Source: a virus. From it: a DNA stretch of 12,891 nt. Positions 1-12,618 of the stretch are shown here, piece by piece; position 1 is the stretch's first letter; the number at the start of each line of letters is the position of its first letter. The notes beneath the pieces are model-generated. The model was not told the DNA's origin and ran no database searches. It saw only the letters and a list, made by a program, of their open reading frames with translations. Where the stretch lies: UHGV virus genome UHGV-1804406; one strand, given 5' to 3'. A program made the translations under genes and the position numbers.

Positions 1-2615
1 TTTTCCTGTATATCTTTCGCCTGCTGCTCCAGCTCGTCGGCATGGTTTTTGATTTCGTCAGCCATGCCAGCAATTTTTTCATTGCTGTCCACTGCGCTCT
101 CAATCAGATCTTTAAACGTAGCGGAGTCTTTGATCTCCTCCAGGATCACATCGGTGATATCGGAAACATCGATGCTGGCCTGACCTCGCACCCAGTCGGT
201 ATACCCGGACTCGTTTCCCGTTCTGTCGACCAGTTGCGCGCGATACCAGAAAATCTGCCCTGCCTTAAGACCCATCTGCTGATATTTGCGCTGCGGATAA
301 GGCACATCGGCCAGCAGCATGGCATCGTCTTCAGTACCGGTCAGGCTGTACTGAATTTCCGTCTTCAGCGTGTCGTCGGTATTCGCCTGGAATCCCCAGT
401 TCAGCTCGATACCGAACACCACGTTTTCAGAGGCGATAAAGCCAACCGGCTTCGGTGGATTGCCCACTTTACCCGTCAGCGTTTTCTCTTCTGAATAGCC
501 CCATCCGGATGAAATTTCTGCGGCATTGATTGCGCGCACCCGCACCAGGTAACGCCCGGCATAAATCCCCGGGACGTCGAATGACGTGGTGGAGGTGCGC
601 GGCACGTTAACCCAGTTCCCGTCGTTGCGGCGCCATTGCGCTTCATAGGCGATAGCGTTCTGCGCCTGGTCCCAGCTCACGCGCATTGTTTCGACGCTGA
701 TATTTTGCTGAACCACGGAAAACGAGCTGATCACGATATTCGCAGGCGGCGACTGGTTGCCCGGCGGGATCACGCTCACCGGCCGTTGGTCAATGATGGC
801 TCCGGTATCGATACGGGCATATTTATCCGGGTCGTGCCATGCGCCGGTAATCGAGAAAGTGCCATCATTGTTATCGGAAACGCTGACAACACGATACTGC
901 TGCGCGTAAAGCTCGTCAGATTCAACCACCCAAACAGCTTCGGCCTGTGGCGTCTCACTGTATGCCGTGGTGACTGTGACTGATTCCCCGTTCACGGCCT
1001 GAATGGTCCTGCTCTGCGACGCTCCGGAAGGCAGGTTGAGAATAAGGCGATCACCTGGTGCTGCATCAGCTACGCGGTCAAGTTTGATAACGCGACCGTT
1101 AACGGCGCTGATGCGGCCGCCCATAACCTTTCCGGAAAGCAGCTCGTCTGCCACGGCGATGATGTAGCCCGGCTGCGGAATGTTTCCGTCCAGCCCGACA
1201 TCAAACGAAACAACGCGATCCTTGTTATTGGTGAGAATACCCCAGCGCCCCTTTCGGTTCGCCTCTGACTGCCTGGTGCAGCCGATGGCTGTCATTTCCA
1301 GCTGATTGAAGCCGTACCGCGCCACCAGCGCCTGCTCAAATACCGGCTCCATCGCGTCGGCATAAGCGTTACCCGGGTCTGACCATGAAACCAGCGCTGT
1401 GGTGTAGCGGCTTTTCGTGGTGCTGCTCGAATAGGTGAAGCGACCGCCAACAACGTTAGCGCGCGTATAGCTGTAATCAACATCGCGCGGCATGTCAGCC
1501 AGGGCCACAATCTGATCCCCGCCCCAGTAGGTCATGCCACGGAAGATAGCGGCAAAATCACGCAGGACTGTGTAGGCGTCGTTCCGGTCCTGAATGTACA
1601 CGTTGCAGGTATAGCGTGGTTCTGTACCGTTGCCCCCTTTGCCGTCTGGTACCATCTGATCACAATACTGAGCAACCTGATAAAGCGTCCATTTATCAAT
1701 ATTCGCAGCGGTCAAACGGTGCCCAAGGCCGAACCGGTCAGAAACAACCAGGTCGTAAAAAATCCACGCAGGGTTATCCGTCCATGCCCACTTAAACGCA
1801 CCGGTCCATGTACCGCTATAAGTGCGGGTTTCAGGGTCGTAGGTATCTGGAACGCGGATAACGCGGCCGCGCGGTTCGCATGAAATTTGAGGAATAGAGC
1901 CGTTGAACTGGCTTGAGTCGAATTCGACGTAGAGCAGCGCGGTGTTCGGGTAGCGCAGTTTGGCGTCAATCACCTCGGTGAAGCTCTGCAGCATCATCGT
2001 GTCGCCGATCTTCGCGCTGTTGGCGTCAGAGGTAATCTTACGCAGACGTATTGTCCATGTGCTGCCAGCCTGCGGTAAATCGATACGGTGGCTGCGCTCA
2101 TAACCAGACGTCGTTTTGCCGGTCACGCTGGTATTGAGTACCGTCTGCCATGTGCCGCCGTCAGTCTGCAGGTCAATCGCATAATTGACCGAGTAACCCA
2201 CCAGATCGCCGTCGTCTTCCTGTTTGAAAAGCGAGGGCCATTTAAGACGCAGGCGAACTGCTGAAAGCTGCGTATTGGTAAACGTGCGCGTCCAGGCTGT
2301 GGCACTTGATACCTCAGTTCCTACGCTGATCTCGTTTTCGGTACCGGGAATACCCTGAATATATTTTTGCGCCTGCGTTCCCGCGCGAAACTCCCACGTT
2401 ACCCCGCTGAAGTTTTGGGAGCCGTCAGCATTCTCCAGCGCTGTTCCGTCCAGGTAGATATCTTTGCCGGTGAGCTGTCCAGCAAACTCCCCTTCCCCAA
2501 GCGCAACGAGGATTTTTGCCTTCGCTACAGATTGCAGATCATCAGGCTGTTCGGTAGGGGTTCGGGAACTTGAGCTGCCGCCCTTGCGGCCTTTTAACAC
2601 TTTATCTGTAGCCAT
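1..2615 (-). CDS. J: Tail tip / host specificity protein J (central tail fibre), N-terminal ~871 codons; C-terminus lies beyond the window start
   Basis: Open minus-strand frame from ATG at 2615..2613 to the window edge (codons end at position 3); not in the ORF track because it runs off the window. Translation begins MATDKVLKGRKGGSSSSRTPTEQ and contains blocks such as YPNTALL..EFDSSQF and QYCDQMVPDGKGG..TEPRYTCNVY that match my recollection of lambda gpJ. It is in the expected position after I. Weak SD; in-frame stop 2651..2649 upstream rules out a longer N-terminus. Confidence 0.9.
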   Translation of the reverse strand, partial: MATDKVLKGRKGGSSSSRTPTEQPDDLQSVAKAKILVALGEGEFAGQLTGKDIYLDGTALENADGSQNFSGVTWEFRAGTQAQKYIQGIPGTENEISVGTEVSSATAWTRTFTNTQLSAVRLRLKWPSLFKQEDDGDLVGYSVNYAIDLQTDGGTWQTVLNTSVTGKTTSGYERSHRIDLPQAGSTWTIRLRKITSDANSAKIGDTMMLQSFTEVIDAKLRYPNTALLYVEFDSSQFNGSIPQISCEPRGRVIRVPDTYDPETRTYSGTWTGAFKWAWTDNPAWIFYDLVVSDRFGLGHRLTAANIDKWTLYQVAQYCDQMVPDGKGGNGTEPRYTCNVYIQDRNDAYTVLRDFAAIFRGMTYWGGDQIVALADMPRDVDYSYTRANVVGGRFTYSSSTTKSRYTTALVSWSDPGNAYADAMEPVFEQALVARYGFNQLEMTAIGCTRQSEANRKGRWGILTNNKDRVVSFDVGLDGNIPQPGYIIAVADELLSGKVMGGRISAVNGRVIKLDRVADAAPGDRLILNLPSGASQSRTIQAVNGESVTVTTAYSETPQAEAVWVVESDELYAQQYRVVSVSDNNDGTFSITGAWHDPDKYARIDTGAIIDQRPVSVIPPGNQSPPANIVISSFSVVQQNISVETMRVSWDQAQNAIAYEAQWRRNDGNWVNVPRTSTTSFDVPGIYAGRYLVRVRAINAAEISSGWGYSEEKTLTGKVGNPPKPVGFIASENVVFGIELNWGFQANTDDTLKTEIQYSLTGTEDDAMLLADVPYPQRKYQQMGLKAGQIFWYRAQLVDRTGNESGYTDWVRGQASIDVSDITDVILEEIKDSATFKDLIESAVDSNEKIAGMADEIKNHADELEQQAKDIQE

Positions 2616-2626
2616 ATTGCGCCCAT

Positions 2627-2649
2627 AAAAAAGCCACCCAAAGGTGGCT
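2627..2649 (-). terminator. Intrinsic-terminator-like hairpin on the minus strand, 11 nt upstream of the J start codon
   Basis: Plus strand reads AAAAAA-GCCACC-CAAA-GGTGGCT; on the minus-strand RNA this is AGCCACC-UUUG-GGUGGCU followed by a U tract of 5-6. Seven-bp stem 2632-2638/2643-2649. No T run follows on the plus strand, so it is unidirectional. Confidence 0.5.
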
Positions 2650-2780
2650 ACTGTCTGAATATCAGGATGTTACAAATCTAAACACCTGGTTATGTTGTGG
2701 ATTCAGCCCGCCAGCGGTGGGACGCTGGTGAACTCATAACAGGTGGAATGGCTGATTACCTCTGGAAAAAGGAGAAGTAA

Positions 2781-3041
2781 ATGGGTTCGATGTTAGAACT
2801 GGAAAAAGAAGTGGCAGAGCTTAAACAAAAGCTGCTTACGCATGAAATTGCAACTGGCCTGATTCTATCGGACATTGTGAAATTACTGGACATTGCCCGG
2901 CCAGGCGCACTCGATGCTCTGACTAAAAACTATCAGGCAGGGCAAGCAAAAATCCCAGAATCAGCTGCACGTAATGATCCGCACACAATTGATGCGTTCA
3001 CGCGCATCCTTAAAGTTTTAGAGGTGGCATCAAAGAAATAA
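2781..3041 (+). CDS. Hypothetical small protein (86 aa) with predicted N-terminal coiled-coil; the only plus-strand gene candidate, inside the I-J insert
   Basis: ATG at 2781 preceded by AAGGAG with a 6-nt spacer (aaaaAGGAGaagtaaATG). 86 codons, MGSMLELEKEVAELKQKLL... The segment looks AT-richer than the flanking tail genes by eye. No minus-strand ORF of any length covers it (stops in all three minus frames between 2650 and 3010). Function unknown. Confidence 0.55.
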   Translation: MGSMLELEKEVAELKQKLLTHEIATGLILSDIVKLLDIARPGALDALTKNYQAGQAKIPESAARNDPHTIDAFTRILKVLEVASKK

Positions 3042-3327
3042 TTAAATCGAGCTTTTCATTGAATATTTCTTCATGAGTTTTAGCGGCCTCATTCTGGGCC
3101 GCTGTTACCGTTCCACCGAAAACCCCTGCATCACCCTGCGAAATCTTTCCCTCCTTTACTCGCAAACTCCAGCCATTACCGGTGATGGTCGAATGAATAG
3201 CGCCACCTGGCCGTAGTGCGTTCTGAATGGCGGAATTGACGATTGCCGGGTTATGCAGCTCTGCTATCTCCACCTGCAGGCTCGCGATGGTTGCCTCAAG
3301 CATGCTCATGCGCTCTTCTAAAGTCAT
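3010..3327 (-). CDS. Hypothetical small protein (105 aa), N-terminal Leu/Glu-rich helix followed by a Gly-rich segment; lies between I and J in the late operon
   Basis: ATG at 3327..3325 preceded by AGGAGA (caggagaaaactATG), 37 nt downstream of the I stop. Translation MTLEERMSMLEATIASLQVEIAELHNPAIVNSAIQNALRPGGAIHSTITGNGWSLRVKEGK...LKL. The track's longer 184-aa form (to 3564) would overlap I out of frame and lacks an SD. Its 3' end overlaps the plus ORF convergently over 3010..3041. Confidence 0.5.
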   Translation of the reverse strand: MTLEERMSMLEATIASLQVEIAELHNPAIVNSAIQNALRPGGAIHSTITGNGWSLRVKEGKISQGDAGVFGGTVTAAQNEAAKTHEEIFNEKLDLIISLMPPLKL

Positions 3328-3364
3328 AGTTTTCTCCTGCCTATCAGCTAATAAGTTAATTAAT

Positions 3365-3955
3365 TTACTGTTGATCTTCGACATAAATCCCGGCAGAAAT
3401 AATCGCACCGCCGATTTGCCGACGACCATAAAGAAGCGGTACCGGATAGCCCTGCGCGGCGGTGTTGGTGACTCCACCGAACGCGTATGAGGCGCGGTTA
3501 TCTGAACTCTGTTTGCTGGCCAGCCCCGCTGGTTGAGGGGAAAGCATCTGAACAACCCCGCCAATCATCATTGCGGCACCGAATTTGTATAAGAATGGTG
3601 ATGCCGCAGCCCAGGGTGTGAAATTAAGCACCGCCCCAACGGCAACCAGAACTGCACCAAGTATTGTCTGGAGTAATCCGGCCTTTTTGCTCCCGATAAT
3701 CACCGGGACAATGCGAATGACATCGCCGGTGACCGGGTAACCCAGGTCATCAACACCAATATTCTTTTTCCCTTTGAATACTGAATAAGTGAGACCACGG
3801 CGTTGGCTGGAAATCATAAACTGCTCAAAGCCCGGTATAGTCTTTGCCAGCGCAACACTCGCTTCGTTCACGCGGGAAATCAGGCGATGGTGAACTTTAC
3901 CGAATGTTTTCCCGAGCACGCCGCCAAGCTCAATGCGGGTCATTACTTCCTGCAT
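3365..3955 (-). CDS. I: Tail assembly protein I
   Basis: 196-aa ORF in the lambda I position, directly after K. SD AGGTG upstream of ATG 3955. Start overlaps the K stop (TAA 3945..3943) by 13 nt; an alternative in-frame ATG at 3943 is possible. Confidence 0.8.
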   Translation of the reverse strand: MQEVMTRIELGGVLGKTFGKVHHRLISRVNEASVALAKTIPGFEQFMISSQRRGLTYSVFKGKKNIGVDDLGYPVTGDVIRIVPVIIGSKKAGLLQTILGAVLVAVGAVLNFTPWAAASPFLYKFGAAMMIGGVVQMLSPQPAGLASKQSSDNRASYAFGGVTNTAAQGYPVPLLYGRRQIGGAIISAGIYVEDQQ

Positions 3956-4674
3956 GTTTCACCTGCCATTACATCTTTATAGCGAACGATCTTCATTGTG
4001 CGCTCCTGCCAGTATCCGCCATAAGGAACACGTTGACTCAGATGCCCGTAAAGATGGTGCAGCAGCATGTTACCCTCCAGTAAAATCCCGGCATGATTCC
4101 ACTTATCGGCCTGCACCTGCATGATGACGAGGTCCCCTTCCTGAGGCGGACCATCAAACTCCCTGAATCCGCACTCGTACCAGCACTCCTGATAGAAATT
4201 GTCCGGGTAGTCGTTTTCCCACCAGGGATAATCCACCCGGTAATCGTGGAGCTCGATACAGTGGGTCTGCCGGAAATAGCTCATTACCAGACCCCAGCAA
4301 TCGAAGTGGCCAAGCACGAACGGACGCTCCAGCAATGGCAGCTCCCCGCGTGGCTGAATGGTACGTAAATCCCCCTCTGGCCAGCTCACAATATGCCAGG
4401 GCAGCAGCGTTGCATCACACTGCGCCTTATCCAGCTCGCTGGCCTGCGTCGTCGCATCAGGATGGCTGTGAACAATGGCCACCACCGTCCCCCAGTCTTC
4501 TGCCGCTGCGTAATCTTCGGGGGACAGGTGAAAATGTTCAGTCGGCTCTGCTGCGAGATTACGACAGGGAAAATAGCGCTCAACCCGGCTTTTCTGTGCC
4601 ACCACGCCGCAGCACTCTCGCGGATATTCCGCTGCAGCGTGTGCCATGATGGCATCAATGGTTTTCTGGCGCAT
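3943..4674 (-). CDS. K: Tail assembly protein K, with MPN/JAMM-type motif and NlpC/P60-like Cys/His region
   Basis: Start chosen at ATG 4674 (MRQKTIDAIMAHAAAEYPRECCGVV) because it has a strong SD (cAGGAGctgat) and sits 1 nt after the L stop (TGA 4678..4676); the track's upstream start 4713 lies inside L. Contains the JAMM-like HSHPD...S..D motif and conserved Cys/His further on, as in lambda gpK. Confidence 0.85.
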   Translation of the reverse strand: MRQKTIDAIMAHAAAEYPRECCGVVAQKSRVERYFPCRNLAAEPTEHFHLSPEDYAAAEDWGTVVAIVHSHPDATTQASELDKAQCDATLLPWHIVSWPEGDLRTIQPRGELPLLERPFVLGHFDCWGLVMSYFRQTHCIELHDYRVDYPWWENDYPDNFYQECWYECGFREFDGPPQEGDLVIMQVQADKWNHAGILLEGNMLLHHLYGHLSQRVPYGGYWQERTMKIVRYKDVMAGETCRK

Positions 4675-4675
4675 A

Positions 4676-5431
4676 TCAGCTCCTGATAAGAGATGTACCG
4701 GGGAAACCGCCAAACGGCAGCTCGTTGCTGTCTCCGTGCCGGAGCTTGCAGGCCGTCAGCGTGCCGTTGCAGACATCCAGCGATGGATCGTCAACCGGAT
4801 TATTGTTTTTGTCGAAATAGCGCGTTCCGGCATAGTCGCAGCCGTCGCCGGTCCGGTACTTGTTCCGGATGCACCAGCTGCATAACGAATGCAGCTGCCG
4901 CGTGGGTATCATCTGGCCCTGTAAATCCATCGGACTGGAAAGCGTAAATTCAACAGATTCATCCGTCTCGGTGCTTCTGGCATCGATATAAAAGACCTTC
5001 AGCTTTTCCTGTGACGGGTCTGCAGTGGGATTGCCCTGCGGAAAATTTCTGGCGTCCAGATACTGTGCCAGCGTGTCGTGGATACTCACTTTCGCCTGCA
5101 GCAGATCGTCATACGCCAGACAGAGCGCTGAGATCGAGCTGTCCAGGTTCGCCACACTCAGTTTTGGCTGTGGACTGGTACCGTCCGTAGTCGCTTCAAT
5201 ACCCTCAACCTGACACGGCCAGGCTTTATACTCCTCCCCCTGCCACCAGATGGACTTCGCCGGAAGTTTATTCTCATCCCCGCCTGCAGCCTCAATCTCT
5301 TCCGGGGTATGCGCGATATTATGTGCGTGGAAGCGGAGTACATCTGACATACCGAACGCTGTGCCATCGACAGAAAAAAGCCGGACTTCATTGCCCGGCT
5401 CGAGTTTTTGATAATCAGCATTAAGACTCAT
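4676..5431 (-). CDS. L: Minor tail protein L (Cys-rich, lambda gpL-like)
   Basis: 251-aa ORF. Its ATG (5431..5429) overlaps the M stop (5430..5428) in an ATGA arrangement, indicating translational coupling. C-terminal Cys cluster (CSWC...C...C...C) as in lambda gpL, which binds an Fe-S cluster. Confidence 0.85.
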   Translation of the reverse strand: MSLNADYQKLEPGNEVRLFSVDGTAFGMSDVLRFHAHNIAHTPEEIEAAGGDENKLPAKSIWWQGEEYKAWPCQVEGIEATTDGTSPQPKLSVANLDSSISALCLAYDDLLQAKVSIHDTLAQYLDARNFPQGNPTADPSQEKLKVFYIDARSTETDESVEFTLSSPMDLQGQMIPTRQLHSLCSWCIRNKYRTGDGCDYAGTRYFDKNNNPVDDPSLDVCNGTLTACKLRHGDSNELPFGGFPGTSLIRS

Positions 5432-5775
5432 GGTGCAAATGCCTGTTCAAACGTTGCGGTTACGGTTATCACTTTTACGTTTTTAACCACCTTTTTGAGC
5501 GTGTCAGCCTCGACACGCCACAGCGCGGTATCGCCGAAAGGCGGAGTGAAAATAAACGACTTCACTTTATGCCGCCGAAGGAAGGCATGAATTTCATTCG
5601 CTGTAGTCGGATCCCCTGAGAAGGAAAATTCATAGGTGCGAATTTCATCATTCAGACCTGAGCCGCTCACCTGTGCGTAACCGTCGCCGAACTGGACCTT
5701 CCTGACGGTGTCTTTGCTTCCCTCTGTGGGCTGGCTGGAGACCTTAATACCCCAGGAGAATGTTTCTATCGTCAT
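5428..5775 (-). CDS. M: Minor tail protein M
   Basis: 115-aa ORF 5 nt after the H stop (TAA 5783..5781). Contains an RKVQFGDGY block matching my recollection of lambda gpM (RKVRFGDGY). Synteny H-M-L. Confidence 0.85.
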   Translation of the reverse strand: MTIETFSWGIKVSSQPTEGSKDTVRKVQFGDGYAQVSGSGLNDEIRTYEFSFSGDPTTANEIHAFLRRHKVKSFIFTPPFGDTALWRVEADTLKKVVKNVKVITVTATFEQAFAP

Positions 5776-5780
5776 AACTG

Positions 5781-8297
5781 TTACCTGCGATTGTTCGCAT
5801 TCCAGATAAGCCCACCGGGCTGGATTGCCCTGGCGATACCATCGTTGACAGATTTGTTAATCACCTGCTGATACGCCTTACCCAGCCTGTCTCCGTCATT
5901 TTGCTGCTGTGCGCCACCGGAGGCATTCTCGACGGTCACAGGCGCGTACACGCTCACCCCGAAAGGTGCTGCAGCGGGACCTGTGCCACTGCCCCCGACA
6001 AGCCCTCCTGTGGCGTACCCTTTCATCATCCGGTAAAGGTTGCCGACGCCGATCCGACTGGTAGCCTCTTTGGTGAAAACAAATTCGCCACGGTGAACGA
6101 CACCTGCGGGTTCATATTTCCCACCCGAACCGGTGAATCCCCCGCTGGCAAACCCCAGCGCCGTGGAGGCTGAATCTACCAGTCCGGTCATTGCCTGCTT
6201 CAGCAGAATTTGTGTCAGCATGGAGAGCGTGGAGCGGGTAAAGTCAGCCCAGTCAGCCTTTCCGCGTGTCAGCATGTCTGCCATATTCTGCCCGATGCCA
6301 TCAAACGTACTGGTGGCAACCGACTTCATCTGGCCATAAGCATCTGAAGCGGAATCAACATAATCTGCCCATGCGGATTTGGCCCCGGATTGCCAGTCGT
6401 CCCGCAGCTTATCCTGCTCGGCGTAATACGCCTGCAGCGCCTGCAGCTCATTCTGATAACCAGCGTCGTTCTCCGAACCGCCACCATTTTTCCAGCCCTG
6501 AAGAAGCTGGTCCTCCTCATTGCGGCGTTGTGCTGCACGACTGCTCATACCAGCACTTTCCGCAAGGGCTCGGGTTTTCTCGCCGATCTGCGTGACGTAT
6601 TTTTGGGACGTATCCTGCAGGCGGTTAAGCCGCTCCTGCGCCACTATCTGATCGCCAAGCTTCGCATTCAGCTCCGCACGGGAAAGCACCTCACTTTTAC
6701 TGGCCAGCAGGGATTTTTCCTCAGCAGAAAGCGTTCGGGTCTTCGCGGCCTCTTCCAGAACCGTAAAGCGGGACTGCTGACGCCACAGCTCCTGACGCTG
6801 CTGGCTGATGGTGTCATTGATGCTCTTATGCTCCTGCAGGGTGCGCAGCTGTGTCTGTAGCTCCAGCGTCTGGGCACTGGCCGTATCGGTGGCACGGGCA
6901 CCTGCGGGGGTTCTGATTGCCGGGGTCTTCTTCGGCTTTTTAAGGGTGTCTTCGTACTCTTTTTTCGCGGCAGCCAGGTTGATGTTGTAGTCAGCCTGGA
7001 GGATCCGCCCCTCTTTCAGCGCCTTGTTGAGCTCGCTCTGCCTGGCCGTGTATTTCTCCAGTGCCGTCTGCGTTTTGGCATAGTTTGCCTGTGCCTGCGC
7101 AGCATACTTCTGGCGATCCGATTCCGCAGCCGCTTCGCGCGATGCATTCTCTTCGTTCGCCCTGGCAATTCCCGCCTGCTGCTGCGCCATATCCAGCGCA
7201 AGCCTGGCCGTTTCGCGGTCATTCCAGAATCGGGCGCGAGCCTCATCATTGACATATCGGTCACCTTTACGCAGGTTCCAGATTTCATCAGCTTTTTTGA
7301 ACGCGGCTTCGGCTTTTGCCACCATCTCCTGCGCGGTGTCAGGTCGGCCAATATCGAGGGCTGCATCCCACATCGACTTGAAGGCGCGCTTCAGGGAGTC
7401 CGCTGAAGACTCTATCGTCCCCATATTGTCGCGGATGGCTTTGGTCTGATCGTTGAATCCGGCTGTAGCCGCCTCGTTAGCCGCCTGCAGTGCGCCAGCC
7501 TCATCACCGGCACGCTGCAGCTGCGCCACATGGGCAATCTGTTCTGCGGTAACGTTATGGAACTGCTGGGCCATCGCGATCAGGCCCGATGTCGGGTCAG
7601 TTGCGAGCTTGCCGTAGGCTGCAGCGACTTTCTCCACCGGCACGCCGGAGGCATCAGTAAACCGCGCCACCGCCTGGCTCATTTCATCAAAGCGCGAGCC
7701 AGTACGCACACCTGCATTGATAAGCTCGGTCAGGGCTTCACTGGTCTGGTTGAACGTTAGCCCCGCTGCCTGTCCGTTCCGCGCCAGTGCCAGCATGCGG
7801 TCAGCTGTCAGTCCGGCTGTGTTCCCCGACAGTACCAGCGTTTTGTTGAAATCAGACAGAGTGGAAGAGCCCTGGTACCAGGCATAGAACAACGCGCCCG
7901 TTGCAACGGACAATGCACCAATGCCGACCATCAACGGGGAAATCGTCCCCAGTAACGCCCGGAATGTCGGAATGATCCCGCCAAAGGAGTCCTTAACCTG
8001 ACCGCCCTGCTGAAGCAGAATCAGCCAGGGGTTCTGCCCACCCGCCAGCTGCGTAGCCACGTCAGTAAACTGCGCCGGGAGCATACGCATCGCTGCGTTA
8101 TACTGACCCACTGAAATACCGGCCTTACGCGCGGCGTTCTCCTGGCGGCTAAAGGACTGCTGGATCCGTAGCGCTTCGTCGTTCGCCGCGCTGCCAGTCT
8201 GCTTTAATTCTTTTTTGACGTAGTTAAGCTGCTCGTTAAATTTCGTCGAGTTAACGTCAAGGTTAACGACCAGATCACCCACTGCCGTCTGGGCCAT
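5781..8297 (-). CDS. H: Tail tape measure protein H
   Basis: 838-aa ORF with SD AGGAGG. Long colinear blocks match recalled lambda gpH (GISVGQYNAAMRMLPAQFTDVATQLAGGQNPWLILLQQGGQVKDSFGG; C-terminal GGKYEPAGVVHRGEFVFTKEATSRIGVGNLYRMMKGYATGG). Central region is Ala/Gln/Glu-rich and helical. Start overlaps the T-frame 3' end by 23 nt. Confidence 0.95.
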   Translation of the reverse strand: MAQTAVGDLVVNLDVNSTKFNEQLNYVKKELKQTGSAANDEALRIQQSFSRQENAARKAGISVGQYNAAMRMLPAQFTDVATQLAGGQNPWLILLQQGGQVKDSFGGIIPTFRALLGTISPLMVGIGALSVATGALFYAWYQGSSTLSDFNKTLVLSGNTAGLTADRMLALARNGQAAGLTFNQTSEALTELINAGVRTGSRFDEMSQAVARFTDASGVPVEKVAAAYGKLATDPTSGLIAMAQQFHNVTAEQIAHVAQLQRAGDEAGALQAANEAATAGFNDQTKAIRDNMGTIESSADSLKRAFKSMWDAALDIGRPDTAQEMVAKAEAAFKKADEIWNLRKGDRYVNDEARARFWNDRETARLALDMAQQQAGIARANEENASREAAAESDRQKYAAQAQANYAKTQTALEKYTARQSELNKALKEGRILQADYNINLAAAKKEYEDTLKKPKKTPAIRTPAGARATDTASAQTLELQTQLRTLQEHKSINDTISQQRQELWRQQSRFTVLEEAAKTRTLSAEEKSLLASKSEVLSRAELNAKLGDQIVAQERLNRLQDTSQKYVTQIGEKTRALAESAGMSSRAAQRRNEEDQLLQGWKNGGGSENDAGYQNELQALQAYYAEQDKLRDDWQSGAKSAWADYVDSASDAYGQMKSVATSTFDGIGQNMADMLTRGKADWADFTRSTLSMLTQILLKQAMTGLVDSASTALGFASGGFTGSGGKYEPAGVVHRGEFVFTKEATSRIGVGNLYRMMKGYATGGLVGGSGTGPAAAPFGVSVYAPVTVENASGGAQQQNDGDRLGKAYQQVINKSVNDGIARAIQPGGLIWNANNRR

Positions 8298-11592: not shown

Positions 11593-12618
11593 TTATGCCA
11601 GTTTGACGGAGACGAATGCGTCAGGGTCTGGCAGCAGCATCAGCGGAGCTGACTGAATCATGGTGAATTCGCGCGCCGGATCCCCCGACTGCACCCAGTT
11701 TTTCGGGTAGCGTGTCGAGGCATTGATACCTTCGCGCTGGGCATCAGCATCAAGAATGCAGCCATAGGTACGCAGGCCACGAGCCTGGGTATTCCCCAGC
11801 ACCATTGTCAGGTCCGGCAGATAATTCTTTTTGACGTCGTTTTCGACGTACTGGCCGGAGTACACCACGATGGCCACATCGCCAAACATCCCCTTGTATG
11901 AAACAGCCATACCCAGGTCTTTCACGGCAGTTTCCAGCTCAGAGTTAGAACCACGACGCGTATCCAGCTTCTTCTCAACAGCCTTGAAGGAACGGAACAG
12001 CGCCCAGCCTTTCGGATCGAACACAATGATGTTGACCACACCGCTGGCGTTGAGCGCGTAGGCTTCAATGTCATCGGTCGGGTCATACGTTTCTTTGTCG
12101 CGGGTTGACCATGCAGCCGCACCGGCCTGGACAATGTTGTTACCAGCGCTGCGGCCCATATCGACTTCAACAGGCTCGAACGCTTCCCCGGTCATGGTGT
12201 ATTTACCGCTGAGCACCGCCGAAACAGCCTGTTTCTCTTCGACCTGAGCAATCGCCAGCTCTTCATCCTTCATGTTCTGAAGGATAATGCGGCGACGGCG
12301 ATAGACCGGGTCAGCGAGATTCTGCGGATCCTCATCCGGCAGGCGGCGGAGAGTCATCAGTGGGTTAACTTCGTGTTTCGGCTTCACATAACCCGGCGTG
12401 AATTCAGACGTGCTGCCGCCACGGGAGCGGATCACTTTGCCGGAGACAATCGGCGAGACGTAAAGCGCCATATTGACCAGGCCAGGAATTTGCGACAGGT
12501 AAACCTTCTCTGTACTGAAGGGATAGGTTTCGCGGAAAAAGATACGCAGGAAAAGCGGATCGAATTTGAATTTCTTCTCATTGACCGCCAGCAGTTGGGC
12601 AGTGGTGTAAACGGACAT
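11593..12618 (-). CDS. E: Major capsid protein E
   Basis: 341-aa ORF, the same length as lambda gpE, with long near-identical blocks from memory (YTTAQLLA.NE.KFKFDPLFLR.FFRE.YPF.TEKVYLSQIPGLVNMALYVSPIVSG.VIRSRGGSTSEFTPGYVKPKHEVNP; NTQARGLRTYGCI.DADAQREGINAS.RYPKNWV..GDPAREFTMIQSAPLMLL). Confidence 0.95.
   Translation of the reverse strand: MSVYTTAQLLAVNEKKFKFDPLFLRIFFRETYPFSTEKVYLSQIPGLVNMALYVSPIVSGKVIRSRGGSTSEFTPGYVKPKHEVNPLMTLRRLPDEDPQNLADPVYRRRRIILQNMKDEELAIAQVEEKQAVSAVLSGKYTMTGEAFEPVEVDMGRSAGNNIVQAGAAAWSTRDKETYDPTDDIEAYALNASGVVNIIVFDPKGWALFRSFKAVEKKLDTRRGSNSELETAVKDLGMAVSYKGMFGDVAIVVYSGQYVENDVKKNYLPDLTMVLGNTQARGLRTYGCILDADAQREGINASTRYPKNWVQSGDPAREFTMIQSAPLMLLPDPDAFVSVKLA

What the first reader, a model, noticed from the sequence alone, without database searches (positions are those of the whole stretch)
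2616..3364. Roughly 750-bp insertion between tail genes I and J carrying a convergent, 3'-overlapping pair of small ORFs: candidate undescribed moron-type system
The rest of the window is colinear with the lambda tail operon, where I is followed closely by J (from memory). Here I and J are separated by about 750 bp. The segment holds a 105-aa minus-strand ORF (3010..3327) and an 86-aa plus-strand ORF (2781..3041), each with a strong Shine-Dalgarno site, and their 3' ends overlap by 32 nt. A terminator-like hairpin bounds it on the J side, and its composition looks AT-richer than the flanking genes by eye. Neither product resembles a protein family I can name. This is the architecture of a horizontally acquired accessory cassette inside a structural operon, such as a lysogenic-conversion, exclusion, defence or anti-defence function, though the sequence alone cannot say which.
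Basis: partly seen in the sequence, partly recalled or inferred. Interest (0 to 1): 0.8.

Follow-up and report, generated by a model that had tools for sequence, protein, structure and literature searches.

The report
Two-gene moron cassette in tail operon
The 750-bp insert between tail genes I and J is a real accessory ("moron") cassette of a kind annotated since 2000 in phages HK97, HK022 and ES18; its two small proteins have unknown function, and its layout matches known prophage defence/counter-defence gene pairs.

Summary
A 749-bp, AT-richer segment (46.7% GC against 54.7%) lies between I and J. It carries a 105-aa ORF co-directional with the tail genes and an 86-aa ORF on the opposite strand, overlapping by 32 nt at their 3' ends, with a terminator before J.

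It is an accessory cassette, not core tail genes: phage mEpX1 has an empty I-J junction. It is not an undescribed architecture. HK97 genes 22/23 ("moron"/"reverse moron"), HK022 22/23 and ES18 24/25 have the same layout and share the roughly 130-nt leader upstream of the reverse gene.

The cassette has conserved ends and a variable interior. It occupies at least four tail-operon junctions, and the leader precedes at least 15 BLAST clusters of reverse cargo, two pairs of which are linked by profile comparison. The leader holds a hairpin with strong covariation and matches no Rfam family.

Neither protein matches any Pfam, NCBIfam or PADLOC family, nor Tab, anti-Tab, Tai or Ati. A weak YbaB lead did not hold up. 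The reverse ORF is under clear purifying selection; the forward ORF evolves fast.

Best reading, by analogy only (about 0.35): a lysogen-expressed defence-type protein paired with a late-operon partner, as in Tab/anti-Tab. Verdict: a new member of a known kind, of moderate interest.

The parts
2616..3364 (.). Whole insert between J start (2615) and I stop codon (3365-3367).
   Evidence: ORF list and sequence. GC 46.7% against 54.7% for the window. The junction is empty in mEpX1.
3010..3327 (-). Forward ORF, 105 aa, co-directional with the tail genes. It has an N-terminal coiled coil (MTLEERMSMLE...), a variable middle, an AAQNEAA motif and a C-terminal tail.
   Evidence: Matches phrog_22477. 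The ORF stays open in homologues down to about 40% identity. Codon-position bias is weak (19/16/34 against L004), and all 5 differences from L025 are non-synonymous. The AF2 model is poor (pLDDT 54).
3334..3349 (-). Conserved left end of the cassette: AGCTGATAGGCAGGAG (consensus AGCCGAAAGGCAGGAG), a mini-hairpin plus Shine-Dalgarno site directly before the forward ATG. There is no room for a promoter.
   Evidence: The upstream regions of 13 loci compared share it. It also precedes HK97 gene 22 and occurs at the H|M and M|L slots. In L029 it starts right after the stop codon of M.
2781..3041 (+). Reverse ORF, 86 aa, opposed to the tail operon. It is predicted as three helices and has a conserved NDPHT motif.
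   Evidence: Matches phrog_23209. AF2 pLDDT 88. Purifying selection is clear: 18 synonymous against 4 non-synonymous codons, with differences at codon positions 2/2/18 against L026. It is a probable remote homologue of the ES18 gp25 family (hhalign 78.6%).
2669..2696 (+). Promoter-like stretch for the reverse gene: -35-like GTTACA at 2669-2674 and -10-like TATGTT at 2691-2696. The TAnnnT positions are invariant or nearly so across 49 leaders.
   Evidence: Alignment A6. This is inferred only: the consensus scan found no sigma-70 site here.
2703..2763 (+). Structured 5' leader. P2 hairpin pairs 2709-2716 with 2723-2730. Possible P1 pairs 2703-2708 (UCAGCC) with 2750-2755 (GGCUGA). Possible P3 pairs 2742-2746 with 2759-2763.
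   Evidence: P2 is 98.7% paired, 5 of 8 pairs show compensatory changes, and no shuffle out of 500 reaches the observed value. P1 is invariant and P3 is 86% paired with weak covariation. No Rfam family matches.
2748..2780 (+). Short upstream ORF MADYLWKKEK. Its stop codon TAA abuts the ATG of the reverse gene.
   Evidence: Sequence. Across loci the ATGGCTGA start is conserved, but the ORF length varies from 3 to 28 codons or is fused to the cargo. The conservation may therefore reflect RNA structure rather than a peptide.
3082..3103 (+). Hairpin AGCGGCC-TCATTCT-GGGCCGCT, 41 nt after the reverse ORF's stop. It is the probable terminator of the reverse transcript and lies inside the forward ORF, where it encodes AAQNEAA.
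   Evidence: Folds of 11 loci. The same hairpin is present in homologues, with a compensatory stem change in L015 and a proper U tract in L026, L015, ES18 and HK022. The U tract is weak in the window itself, and the scan did not call it.
2625..2649 (-). Intrinsic terminator facing the tail-operon direction, 10-17 nt upstream of the J start codon.
   Evidence: It is annotated as a terminator in HK97, HK225, mEpX1 and ES18. It travels with the cassette to other slots.
3365..3955 (-). Tail assembly gene I (196 aa), the upstream flank.
   Evidence: Weak Lambda_tail_I match. Annotated as a tail assembly protein in the 97.6%-identical E. coli prophage.
1..2615 (-). 5' part of host-specificity gene J, the downstream flank, which runs off the window.
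   Evidence: Sequence. Annotated as host specificity protein J in homologous records.

Best explanation
The insert is one member of a widespread family of modular accessory cassettes that sit at junctions of HK97-, N15- and ES18-type siphophage tail operons. It has two parts.

(1) A small forward gene has only a conserved ribosome-binding site and no promoter of its own. It is therefore made from the late (tail) mRNA during lytic growth.

(2) A self-contained reverse transcription unit is read against the operon. It consists of a weak sigma-70-like promoter, a structured 5' leader, the 86-aa cargo gene, and a terminator hairpin embedded in the forward gene. This unit is presumably expressed from the repressed prophage. 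A second terminator, facing the operon direction, insulates J.

By analogy with Tab/anti-Tab of Pseudomonas phage JBD26 and Tai/Ati of coliphage phi80, the most likely function is as follows. The 86-aa reverse protein is a lysogen-expressed factor that acts against superinfecting related phages, possibly at virion or tail assembly. The 105-aa forward protein is its late-expressed cognate partner, giving self-immunity.

What is shown: the anatomy, the mobility, the modularity, coding selection on the reverse gene, and the hairpin in the leader. What is inferred: promoter use, timing of expression, any defence phenotype, and any interaction between the two proteins.
For: Accessory nature and mobility:
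- The site is empty in mEpX1, and other phages carry alternative contents there.
- The same pair is found at H|M. The leader is found at I|J (23 loci), M|L (15-19), before M (8) and before the tape-measure gene (4) among 92 distinct loci.
- Composition deviates from the flanks.

Modularity:
- The left end (about 16 nt, ribosome-binding site) and the right end (about 150 nt, terminator plus leader) are conserved. The interior varies.
- The leader precedes at least 15 BLAST clusters of cargo; profile comparison links two pairs of them.
- It occurs in at least 120 IMG/VR contigs and in 56 of 5,426 E. coli genomes.

Pairing:
- In this family a forward and a reverse gene co-occur in nearly every locus, always convergent, with 32-53 nt of overlap.
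- Forward-gene families track cargo families: ES18 gp24-type with gp25-type, HK97 gp22-type with gp23-type.

Forward gene lacks a promoter: in L029 the cassette starts right after the stop of M.

Reverse gene is real: 18 synonymous against 4 non-synonymous codon differences.

Precedent:
- In JBD26, tab lies on the opposite strand with its own promoter, and atab lies right after the preceding late gene (PMC10884400).
- In the JBD26 record the two genes are convergent with a 47-nt 3' overlap.
- The phi80 Tai/Ati pair forms a 'noncontiguous operon' (PMC11364771).
- A reverse gene inside Salmonella prophage ST64B lytic genes is transcribed from its own promoter in lysogens (PMC7067206).
Against: - There is no sequence similarity to Tab, anti-Tab, TaiEcA or AtiEcA (hhalign probability at most 0.1%). 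No PADLOC model matches. Structure searches found nothing.
- No expression or phenotype data exist for this family.
- The co-variation between the forward protein's C-terminal tail and the cargo type is explained by physical linkage. That tail is encoded between the cargo's stop codon and its terminator, so it is not evidence of binding.
- The consensus scan finds no sigma-70 promoter.
- Some cargo genes on the same platform have no forward partner. The platform is therefore a general expression site, and the cargo could do anything useful to a lysogen.
- The forward ORF shows only a weak signature of purifying selection.
Confidence: 0.35

Rival explanations
1. The two genes are functionally independent and merely share a hotspot. 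The reverse gene is a lysogenic-conversion gene of some non-defence function, such as host physiology or regulation. The forward gene is a dispensable late protein, for example a tail-associated or assembly accessory.
For: - The platform carries many unrelated cargo genes, some without a forward gene.
- Forward-only (HK225) and reverse-only (E. coli MB06022, MSB1_9D) sites exist.
- The forward middle and tail modules recombine independently.
- One family member has a weak match to the tail-tip fibre domain PF09327 (E = 0.0015, below the curated cut-off).
Against: - Within this family and the ES18- and HK97-type families, forward and reverse types are found together in nearly every locus, even when the cassette has moved to another junction.
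- The forward family shows no similarity to the cognate J protein.
Confidence: 0.3
2. The unit works mainly at the RNA level. Convergent transcription from the reverse promoter interferes with, or is antisense to, leaky tail-operon transcripts in the lysogen, or late transcription silences the reverse gene. On this view the proteins are secondary.
For: - The transcription units are convergent and overlapping. The reverse terminator lies inside the forward ORF, and an operon-direction terminator lies before J.
- The leader RNA is highly conserved and structured.
- There is precedent for an antisense RNA in prophage late genes that excludes superinfecting phage (STnc6030, PMC7067206).
Against: - The reverse ORF is under clear purifying selection at the protein level.
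- The cargo proteins are diverse but always keep an intact ORF.
- An RNA-only device would not need at least 15 different coding cargoes.
Confidence: 0.12
3. The pair is a toxin-antitoxin or addiction-type module that stabilises the prophage.
For: Two small adjacent genes are inherited together. The authors of the Tab paper note that such pairs resemble addiction modules (PMC10884400).
Against: - Neither protein matches any toxin or antitoxin family in Pfam, NCBIfam or PADLOC.
- The genes are convergent, with separate and differently timed expression, not an operon.
- Reverse-only sites exist.
Confidence: 0.05
4. The forward protein is a divergent YbaB/EbfC-type nucleoid-associated DNA-binding protein that regulates the reverse gene.
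For: - A profile of the family hits E. coli YbaB in the PDB over nearly its full length (E = 0.0016).
- There are weak single-sequence hits in Pfam and NCBIfam.
- hhalign against the single E. coli YbaB sequence gives 45% probability.
Against: - Against an 8-sequence YbaB profile the probability falls to 4.7%.
- Only 2 of 17 family members hit the Pfam model.
- The shared 'AAxNxA' motif is the imprint of the reverse gene's GC-rich terminator hairpin.
Confidence: 0.03
5. Both ORFs are conserved core tail-module genes with a structural role.
For: They lie inside the tail operon, and the forward one is co-directional with it.
Against: - They are absent from mEpX1, HK225 and most relatives with near-identical J starts.
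- They are present in only 3 of 5,426 complete E. coli genomes as the full insert.
- They are absent from all 50,697 phage records searched.
- The cassette occupies different junctions in different phages.
Confidence: 0.01

Closest known systems
HK97 genes 22 ('moron') and 23 ('reverse moron'), and HK022 genes 22 and 23 ('srb'). Sources: GenBank AF069529 and AF069308; concept from Juhala et al. 2000, as cited in PMC3594210.
   Same: - Same I-J junction.
- Same convergent, 3'-overlapping forward and reverse gene pair.
- Same terminator before J.
- Same roughly 130-nt leader upstream of the reverse gene (75-79% identity). The reverse gene even starts at the same offset from J.
   Different: The proteins are unrelated in sequence. 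The functions of the HK97 and HK022 genes are also unknown.
ES18 genes 24 and 25 ('possible moron; function unknown', GenBank AY736146).
   Same: Same cassette design and same leader. The ES18 gp25 family is a probable remote homologue of the window's 86-aa protein (hhalign 78.6%, E = 1.7e-5).
   Different: The ES18 pair sits between M and L, not I and J. The forward gene (gp24) belongs to a different family, and the two ES18 genes abut rather than overlap.
Tab/anti-Tab of Pseudomonas phage JBD26 (Patel et al. 2024, PMC10884400).
   Same: - Two small genes (83 aa each) lie inside the late operon.
- The defence gene is on the opposite strand with its own promoter.
- The partner lies directly after the preceding late gene and has no promoter.
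- The genes are convergent with a 47-nt 3' overlap. This is the same layout as here.
   Different: - There is no detectable sequence similarity.
- The location differs: between the terminase genes of a Mu-like phage.
- The defence phenotype, the tape-measure target and the binding are shown for Tab and untested here.
Tai/Ati of coliphage phi80, a 'noncontiguous operon' (PMC11364771).
   Same: A reverse-oriented, prophage-expressed defence gene interrupts the Q-dependent late operon, next to a late-expressed counter-defence gene. TaiEcA targets the central tail fibre (J) of HK97-like phages.
   Different: In phi80 the two genes are divergent, not convergent. They lie upstream of the packaging module, and TaiEcA is 204 aa. 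There is no sequence similarity.
HK97 gp15 moron, a superinfection exclusion protein (Cumby et al. 2012, as described in PMC3594210).
   Same: It is a moron inside the tail operon of the same phage group, expressed from the prophage.
   Different: gp15 is a single inner-membrane protein read in the operon direction. Here there are two genes, and the reverse one is predicted to be helical.

Membership tests
Moron (as defined in PMC3594210, citing Juhala et al. 2000) | Extra DNA between two genes that are adjacent in related phages. | tested here: met
   In mEpX1, I is followed after about 50 bp by J. In this window the gap is 749 bp.
Moron (as defined in PMC3594210, citing Juhala et al. 2000) | Base composition differs from the surrounding genes. 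| tested here: met
   46.7% GC against 54.7%, in the lowest 0.5% of 749-nt windows. GC3 is 0.40 and 0.49 against 0.53-0.65 for the tail genes.
Moron (as defined in PMC3594210, citing Juhala et al. 2000) | Has its own terminator. | tested here: met
   An operon-direction terminator lies at 2649..2625. A reverse-gene hairpin lies at 3082-3103 and is conserved across homologues.
Moron (as defined in PMC3594210, citing Juhala et al. 2000) | Has its own promoter. | tested here: inconclusive
   The consensus scan finds none. The leader alignment shows an invariant TAnnnT with a TTGCTn-like element 15-16 nt upstream. The forward gene has no room for a promoter.
Moron (as defined in PMC3594210, citing Juhala et al. 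2000) | Expressed from the repressed prophage. | not testable with these tools
   This needs RNA-seq or a reporter in a lysogen.
HK97 gene 22/23-type forward plus reverse moron pair | Convergent, 3'-overlapping pair at a tail-operon junction, with the shared leader and a terminator. | tested here: met
HK97 gene 22/23-type forward plus reverse moron pair | Protein homology to gp22 or gp23. | tested here: not met
   The proteins fall in separate BLAST and hhalign clusters.
Tab/anti-Tab | Gene layout: a reverse gene with its own promoter, a forward partner without one, inside the late operon. | tested here: met
   Layout compared, with the paper text. The promoter is inferred only.
Tab/anti-Tab | Sequence or profile similarity to Tab or anti-Tab. 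| tested here: not met
   hhalign probability 0.1%.
Tab/anti-Tab | Blocks tail assembly of invading phage, and the partner binds and neutralises it. | not testable with these tools
   This needs plaque assays, electron microscopy and interaction assays.
Tai/Ati | Sequence similarity to TaiEcA or AtiEcA. | tested here: not met
   hhalign probability 0.1%.
YbaB/EbfC nucleoid-associated proteins (PF02575, TIGR00103) | Significant match to the family profile. | tested here: not met
   - Pfam 13.4 bits against a cut-off of 25.5.
- TIGR00103 14.8 bits against 49.45.
- 2 of 17 members hit the Pfam model.
- hhalign against a YbaB profile gives 4.7%.
Known anti-phage defence systems (PADLOC-DB v2) | Match to any model. 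| tested here: not met
   No hits for either protein at E <= 0.1.
Rfam RNA families (for the leader) | Match to any covariance model. | tested here: not met
   The only hit is rseX at E = 0.89, 26.5 bits against a gathering score of 50, and on the opposite strand.

The most novel reading that the evidence does not exclude
The cassette is one instance of an unrecognised expression platform for prophage accessory genes inside siphophage tail operons. The platform has a portable unit with conserved ends. A structured, possibly pseudoknotted 5' leader RNA with no Rfam match controls at least 15 BLAST clusters of fast-evolving reverse-strand cargo proteins. Many of these are paired with a late-operon partner gene. 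On this reading the window's pair would be a new Tab/anti-Tab-like defence and self-immunity system, and the leader a new cis-regulatory RNA class.
Probability: 0.3. Interest if true: 0.75.

Novelty: new member of a known kind. Interest (0 to 1): 0.5.

Why it matters
Morons in the tail operons of HK97-like phages have been annotated for 25 years, and most still have no known function. Two recent studies (Tab/anti-Tab and Tai/Ati) showed that reverse-oriented genes inside late operons, paired with a late-expressed neighbour, can be defence and counter-defence systems that block tail assembly.

This window's cassette has that layout and belongs to a large modular family: at least 120 viral contigs, at least 15 BLAST clusters of cargo (two pairs linked by profile comparison), and at least four junctions. 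If the analogy holds, these junctions are an unexplored reservoir of small anti-phage proteins and their antidotes in enterobacterial prophages. The shared leader would then be both a handle for finding them and a candidate new regulatory RNA. If it does not hold, this is one more uncharacterised moron at a known hotspot.

Tried and rejected
1. YbaB/EbfC homology of the forward protein. It looked promising (PDB profile hit E = 0.0016, full length). It weakened against a proper YbaB profile (4.7%). The shared motif turned out to be encoded by a terminator hairpin. Rejected.

2. Similarity of the forward protein to the tail-tip fibre J. One family member hits PF09327 below the cut-off. Neither the family profile nor that member shows significant similarity to the cognate J. 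Not supported.

3. Fold searches.
- The reverse model (pLDDT 88) gave no hit with E <= 0.001 against the PDB or BFVD.

4. A sensitive profile search of 1.84 billion representative proteins with the reverse family found only 12 representatives and no link to a larger family.

5. Homology to Tab, anti-Tab, TaiEcA and AtiEcA: none found.

6. My impression by eye that HK97 gp22 is related to the 111-aa forward type was not supported by BLAST clustering. It is not claimed.

7. The upstream ORF 'MADYLW...' as a conserved leader peptide. Its length varies from 3 to 28 codons, and its start pairs with an upstream invariant hexamer. A peptide role is therefore doubtful.

8. Co-variation of the forward C-terminal tail with cargo type as evidence of protein-protein specificity. 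Rejected as evidence, because the tail is encoded inside the reverse module.

9. Literature searches for 'reverse moron' and for HK022 'srb' found nothing relevant.
Full report
**1. The observation**

The window carries an HK97/N15-type siphophage structural operon on its minus strand:

| Gene | Coordinates |
|---|---|
| major capsid | 11593-12618 |
| tape measure | 5781-8297 |
| M | 5428-5775 |
| L | 4676-5431 |
| K | 3943-4713 |
| I | 3365-3955 |
| J | starts at 2615, runs off the left end |

Between the J start and the I stop lie 749 bp (2616-3364).
- There is a 105-aa ORF at 3327..3010 and an 86-aa ORF at 2781..3041.
- Each has an AGGAG 6-7 nt before its ATG.
- Their 3' ends overlap by 32 nt.
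- A terminator-like hairpin lies at 2649..2632, followed by a T run, on the minus strand.
- GC is lower: 46.7% against a window mean of 54.7%. This is in the lowest 0.5% of windows of that size. The reverse ORF has GC3 0.40 against 0.53-0.65 for the tail genes.

One point matters for interpretation. The 'minus-strand' ORF runs with the tail genes (I call it the forward gene). The 'plus-strand' ORF runs against them (the reverse gene).

**2. It is an insertion at a known hotspot**

DNA searches show that the J start and the terminator are 96-99% identical in many HK97-like phages, while the interior is not. Annotated records show what sits at the I-J junction in relatives:

| Phage or prophage | Content of the junction |
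|---|---|
| mEpX1 | empty (I stop, terminator, J) |
| HK225 | one forward gene |
| E. coli MB06022, MSB1_9D | one reverse gene |
| HK97 | gene 22 'moron product' + gene 23 'reverse moron product' |
| HK022 | gene 22 + gene 23 'srb' |

The HK97 and HK022 pairs are convergent and 3'-overlapping. ES18 has an equivalent pair, genes 24/25 ('possible moron'), between M and L. The architecture has therefore been annotated since the HK97/HK022 comparison that coined the word moron (PMC3594210, citing Juhala et al. 2000). The full insert of this window occurs in only 3 of 5,426 complete E. coli genomes. No phage isolate record encodes either protein.

**3. The two proteins**

Neither protein matches a Pfam, NCBIfam or PADLOC family. 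Both fall in PHROG families of unknown function.

The reverse protein belongs to a small family:
- 13 clusters at 90% identity.
- 12 representatives among 1.84 billion proteins.
- Invariant motifs: an N-terminal coiled-coil stretch and NDPHT.
- A confident three-helix model (pLDDT 88), with no informative structural neighbour.
- Clear purifying selection: 18 synonymous against 4 non-synonymous codon differences from L026, with differences at codon positions 2/2/18.
- Profile comparison links it to the ES18 gp25 family (78.6%, E = 1.7e-5).

The forward protein belongs to a mosaic family:
- It has an almost invariant N-terminal coiled coil (MTLEeRVEALE), a middle part of 0-70 residues, an AA[PQ]N[EQ]AA motif, and one of several C-terminal tails.
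- Its model is poor (pLDDT 54).
- Its codon-position signal is weak (19/16/34 against L004).
- Among near-identical cassettes it differs only by non-synonymous changes (5 against 0 for L025), while the reverse protein stays identical in the loci shown.
- The ORF is nevertheless intact in all homologues and keeps a conserved ribosome-binding site. I treat it as a fast-evolving gene.

**4. A lead that failed**

A profile of the forward family hit E. coli YbaB in the PDB over nearly its full length (E = 0.0016). The evidence then turned against it.
- With an 8-sequence YbaB profile the hhalign probability fell from 45% to 4.7%.
- Only 2 of 17 members hit the Pfam model.
- The shared AAxNxA motif is encoded by a GC-rich hairpin 41 nt after the reverse gene's stop. 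That hairpin is conserved on the reverse strand, with a compensatory stem change in L015 and a proper U tract in L026, L015, ES18 and HK022.

The motif is therefore the protein imprint of the reverse gene's terminator, not a YbaB signature. The same result shows that the forward protein's tail is encoded inside the reverse module. Its co-variation with cargo type is thus physical linkage, not evidence of binding.

**5. The cassette is modular and mobile**

The contexts of divergent homologues show the same convergent pair at several places:
- between I and J in Leclercia and in metagenomic contigs;
- between the tape-measure region and M in L005;
- in a different tail type in L010.

Comparing ends across loci gives a clear picture.
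- **Left end.** A conserved AGCCGAAAGGCAGGAG element lies directly before the forward ATG and leaves no room for a promoter. In L029 it begins right after the stop of M.
- **Right end.** About 150 nt are conserved. They comprise the operon-direction terminator and a leader that precedes whatever reverse gene is present.

BLAST found it in 56 E. coli genomes and in named phages: HK97, HK022, HK633, mEp213, mEp043, ES18, SPN3UB and others.

Among 92 distinct loci the slots are I|J (23), M|L (15-19), before M (8), before the tape-measure gene (4), and other or unknown (32). The cargo genes behind the leader fall into at least 15 BLAST clusters. Most are 65-100-aa proteins; others are 154, 169, 190 and 210 aa. 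Only two pairs of clusters are linked by profile comparison. Forward-gene families track cargo families.

**6. The leader**

An alignment of 49 distinct leaders shows several features.
- An invariant TAnnnT lies 15-16 nt downstream of a TTGCTn-like element. This is promoter-like, though the consensus scan does not call it.
- An 8-bp hairpin (window 2709-2716 with 2723-2730) is 98.7% paired. Five of its pairs show compensatory changes, and there are 37 doubly changed cells against 8.5 in shuffles. Slid controls pair at 41% or less.
- RNAalifold also pairs the invariant UCAGCC (2703-2708) with GGCUGA (2750-2755). That is the ATGGCTGA which looks like the start of a short upstream ORF, MADYLWKKEK in the window.
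- A third helix, GGAGG with CCUCU, is 86% paired with weak covariation. Together with the UCAGCC/GGCUGA helix it would form a pseudoknot.

Two caveats apply. The search pattern fixed GAATATCAGG.TGTT and ATGGCTGA, so invariance there is by construction. The UCAGCC/GGCUGA helix never varies, so it is neither supported nor contradicted by covariation. No Rfam family matches.

**7. How it most likely works**

Shown:
- a forward gene that can only be translated from the late operon mRNA;
- a reverse unit with its own leader, coding gene and terminator;
- a terminator that insulates J;
- mobility of the whole unit as a block.

Inferred:
- the reverse unit is transcribed in the lysogen, as morons are by definition (PMC3594210). 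A reverse gene inside the lytic genes of Salmonella prophage ST64B is transcribed in this way (PMC7067206);
- Q-modified late transcription reads through the terminator and makes the forward protein.

The closest experimentally understood systems have this logic. In JBD26, tab is on the opposite strand with its own promoter, and atab directly follows the preceding late gene. Tab blocks tail assembly of invading phages, and anti-Tab binds it during the prophage's own lytic cycle (PMC10884400). In the JBD26 record the two 83-aa genes are convergent with a 47-nt 3' overlap. In phi80, Tai and Ati form a 'noncontiguous operon', and TaiEcA targets the central tail fibre of HK97-like phages (PMC11364771).

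I therefore rank a defence plus self-immunity pair first, at about 0.35. I stress that no sequence similarity supports membership and that no phenotype is known.

The main rival, at about 0.3, is that the two genes are independent cargo at a shared hotspot. An RNA-level interference device (0.12), a toxin-antitoxin module (0.05) and a YbaB-like regulator (0.03) are less likely. Core tail genes are excluded.

**8. Verdict**

The interpretation as an accessory cassette is right. The claim that it is undescribed is not: the pair layout and the hotspot are annotated in HK97, HK022 and ES18.

What is new here:
- two uncharacterised protein families;
- evidence that such cassettes have conserved ends, move between junctions, and share a structured leader with strong covariation;
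- a concrete, testable analogy to Tab/anti-Tab.

I rate it a new member of a known kind, with interest 0.5.

Noticed in passing
window 2649-2780 (+); alignment A6 of 49 loci: The conserved leader upstream of the reverse gene holds a hairpin with strong covariation (98.7% paired, 5 of 8 pairs compensatory). Two further candidate helices would form a pseudoknot. No Rfam family matches. The leader precedes at least 15 BLAST clusters of cargo in at least 120 viral contigs.
   Followed up: partly
window 2748-2780 (+): A short upstream ORF, MADYLWKKEK, ends in a stop codon that abuts the reverse gene's ATG. Across loci its start is conserved, but its length varies from 3 to 28 codons, or it is fused in frame to the cargo.
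   Followed up: partly
window 3082-3103 (+), which encodes AAQNEAA in the forward ORF: A conserved protein motif of the forward family is the imprint of the reverse gene's terminator hairpin. This produced a misleading YbaB/EbfC similarity.
   Followed up: yes
L025, L017-L024 and L003 compared with window 3010-3327: Among near-identical cassettes the forward protein differs only by non-synonymous changes (for example 5 against 0 for L025; Q/P, T/I/A, H/R). The reverse protein is 100% identical in the loci shown. This suggests diversifying or relaxed selection.
   Followed up: partly
L054, L055, L066, L070, L074, L079 (cargo of 154 aa): One cargo family behind the same leader carries an 'ALIDTGAD' motif, which resembles retropepsin-type aspartic proteases by eye. 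It is paired with a 53-aa MTLAERVKRIE... forward gene.
   Followed up: no
L044, L045, L047, L049, L102, L108, L113, L116 and others: In many contigs the leader and its cargo lie convergent to a 485-aa gene with a DDGS motif (glycosyltransferase-like by eye) rather than in the tail operon.
   Followed up: no
L163 (HK633 40113-40260); also mEp213 and mEp043: In these phages the same leader lies near the right end of the genome, downstream of the lysis genes, in front of an 81-aa hypothetical gene.
   Followed up: no
L003 7515-8526 (E. coli VREC0864 prophage): The closest prophage relative (97.6% identical across the insert) has an extra KilA-N-domain gene and a hypothetical gene between K and I. 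In the window K and I overlap, so that junction is a second variable slot.
   Followed up: no
L162 2956-3354 (ES18 gene 22): ES18 carries a further reverse-oriented 'possible moron' between the tape-measure gene and M, with its own putative terminator.
   Followed up: no
window 3334-3349 (-) and 12 other loci: The conserved left end AGCCGAAAGGCAGGAG could form a 3-bp stem with a GAAA tetraloop just before the Shine-Dalgarno site. It also precedes HK97 gene 22 and the unrelated 55-aa ORF of L010.
   Followed up: no
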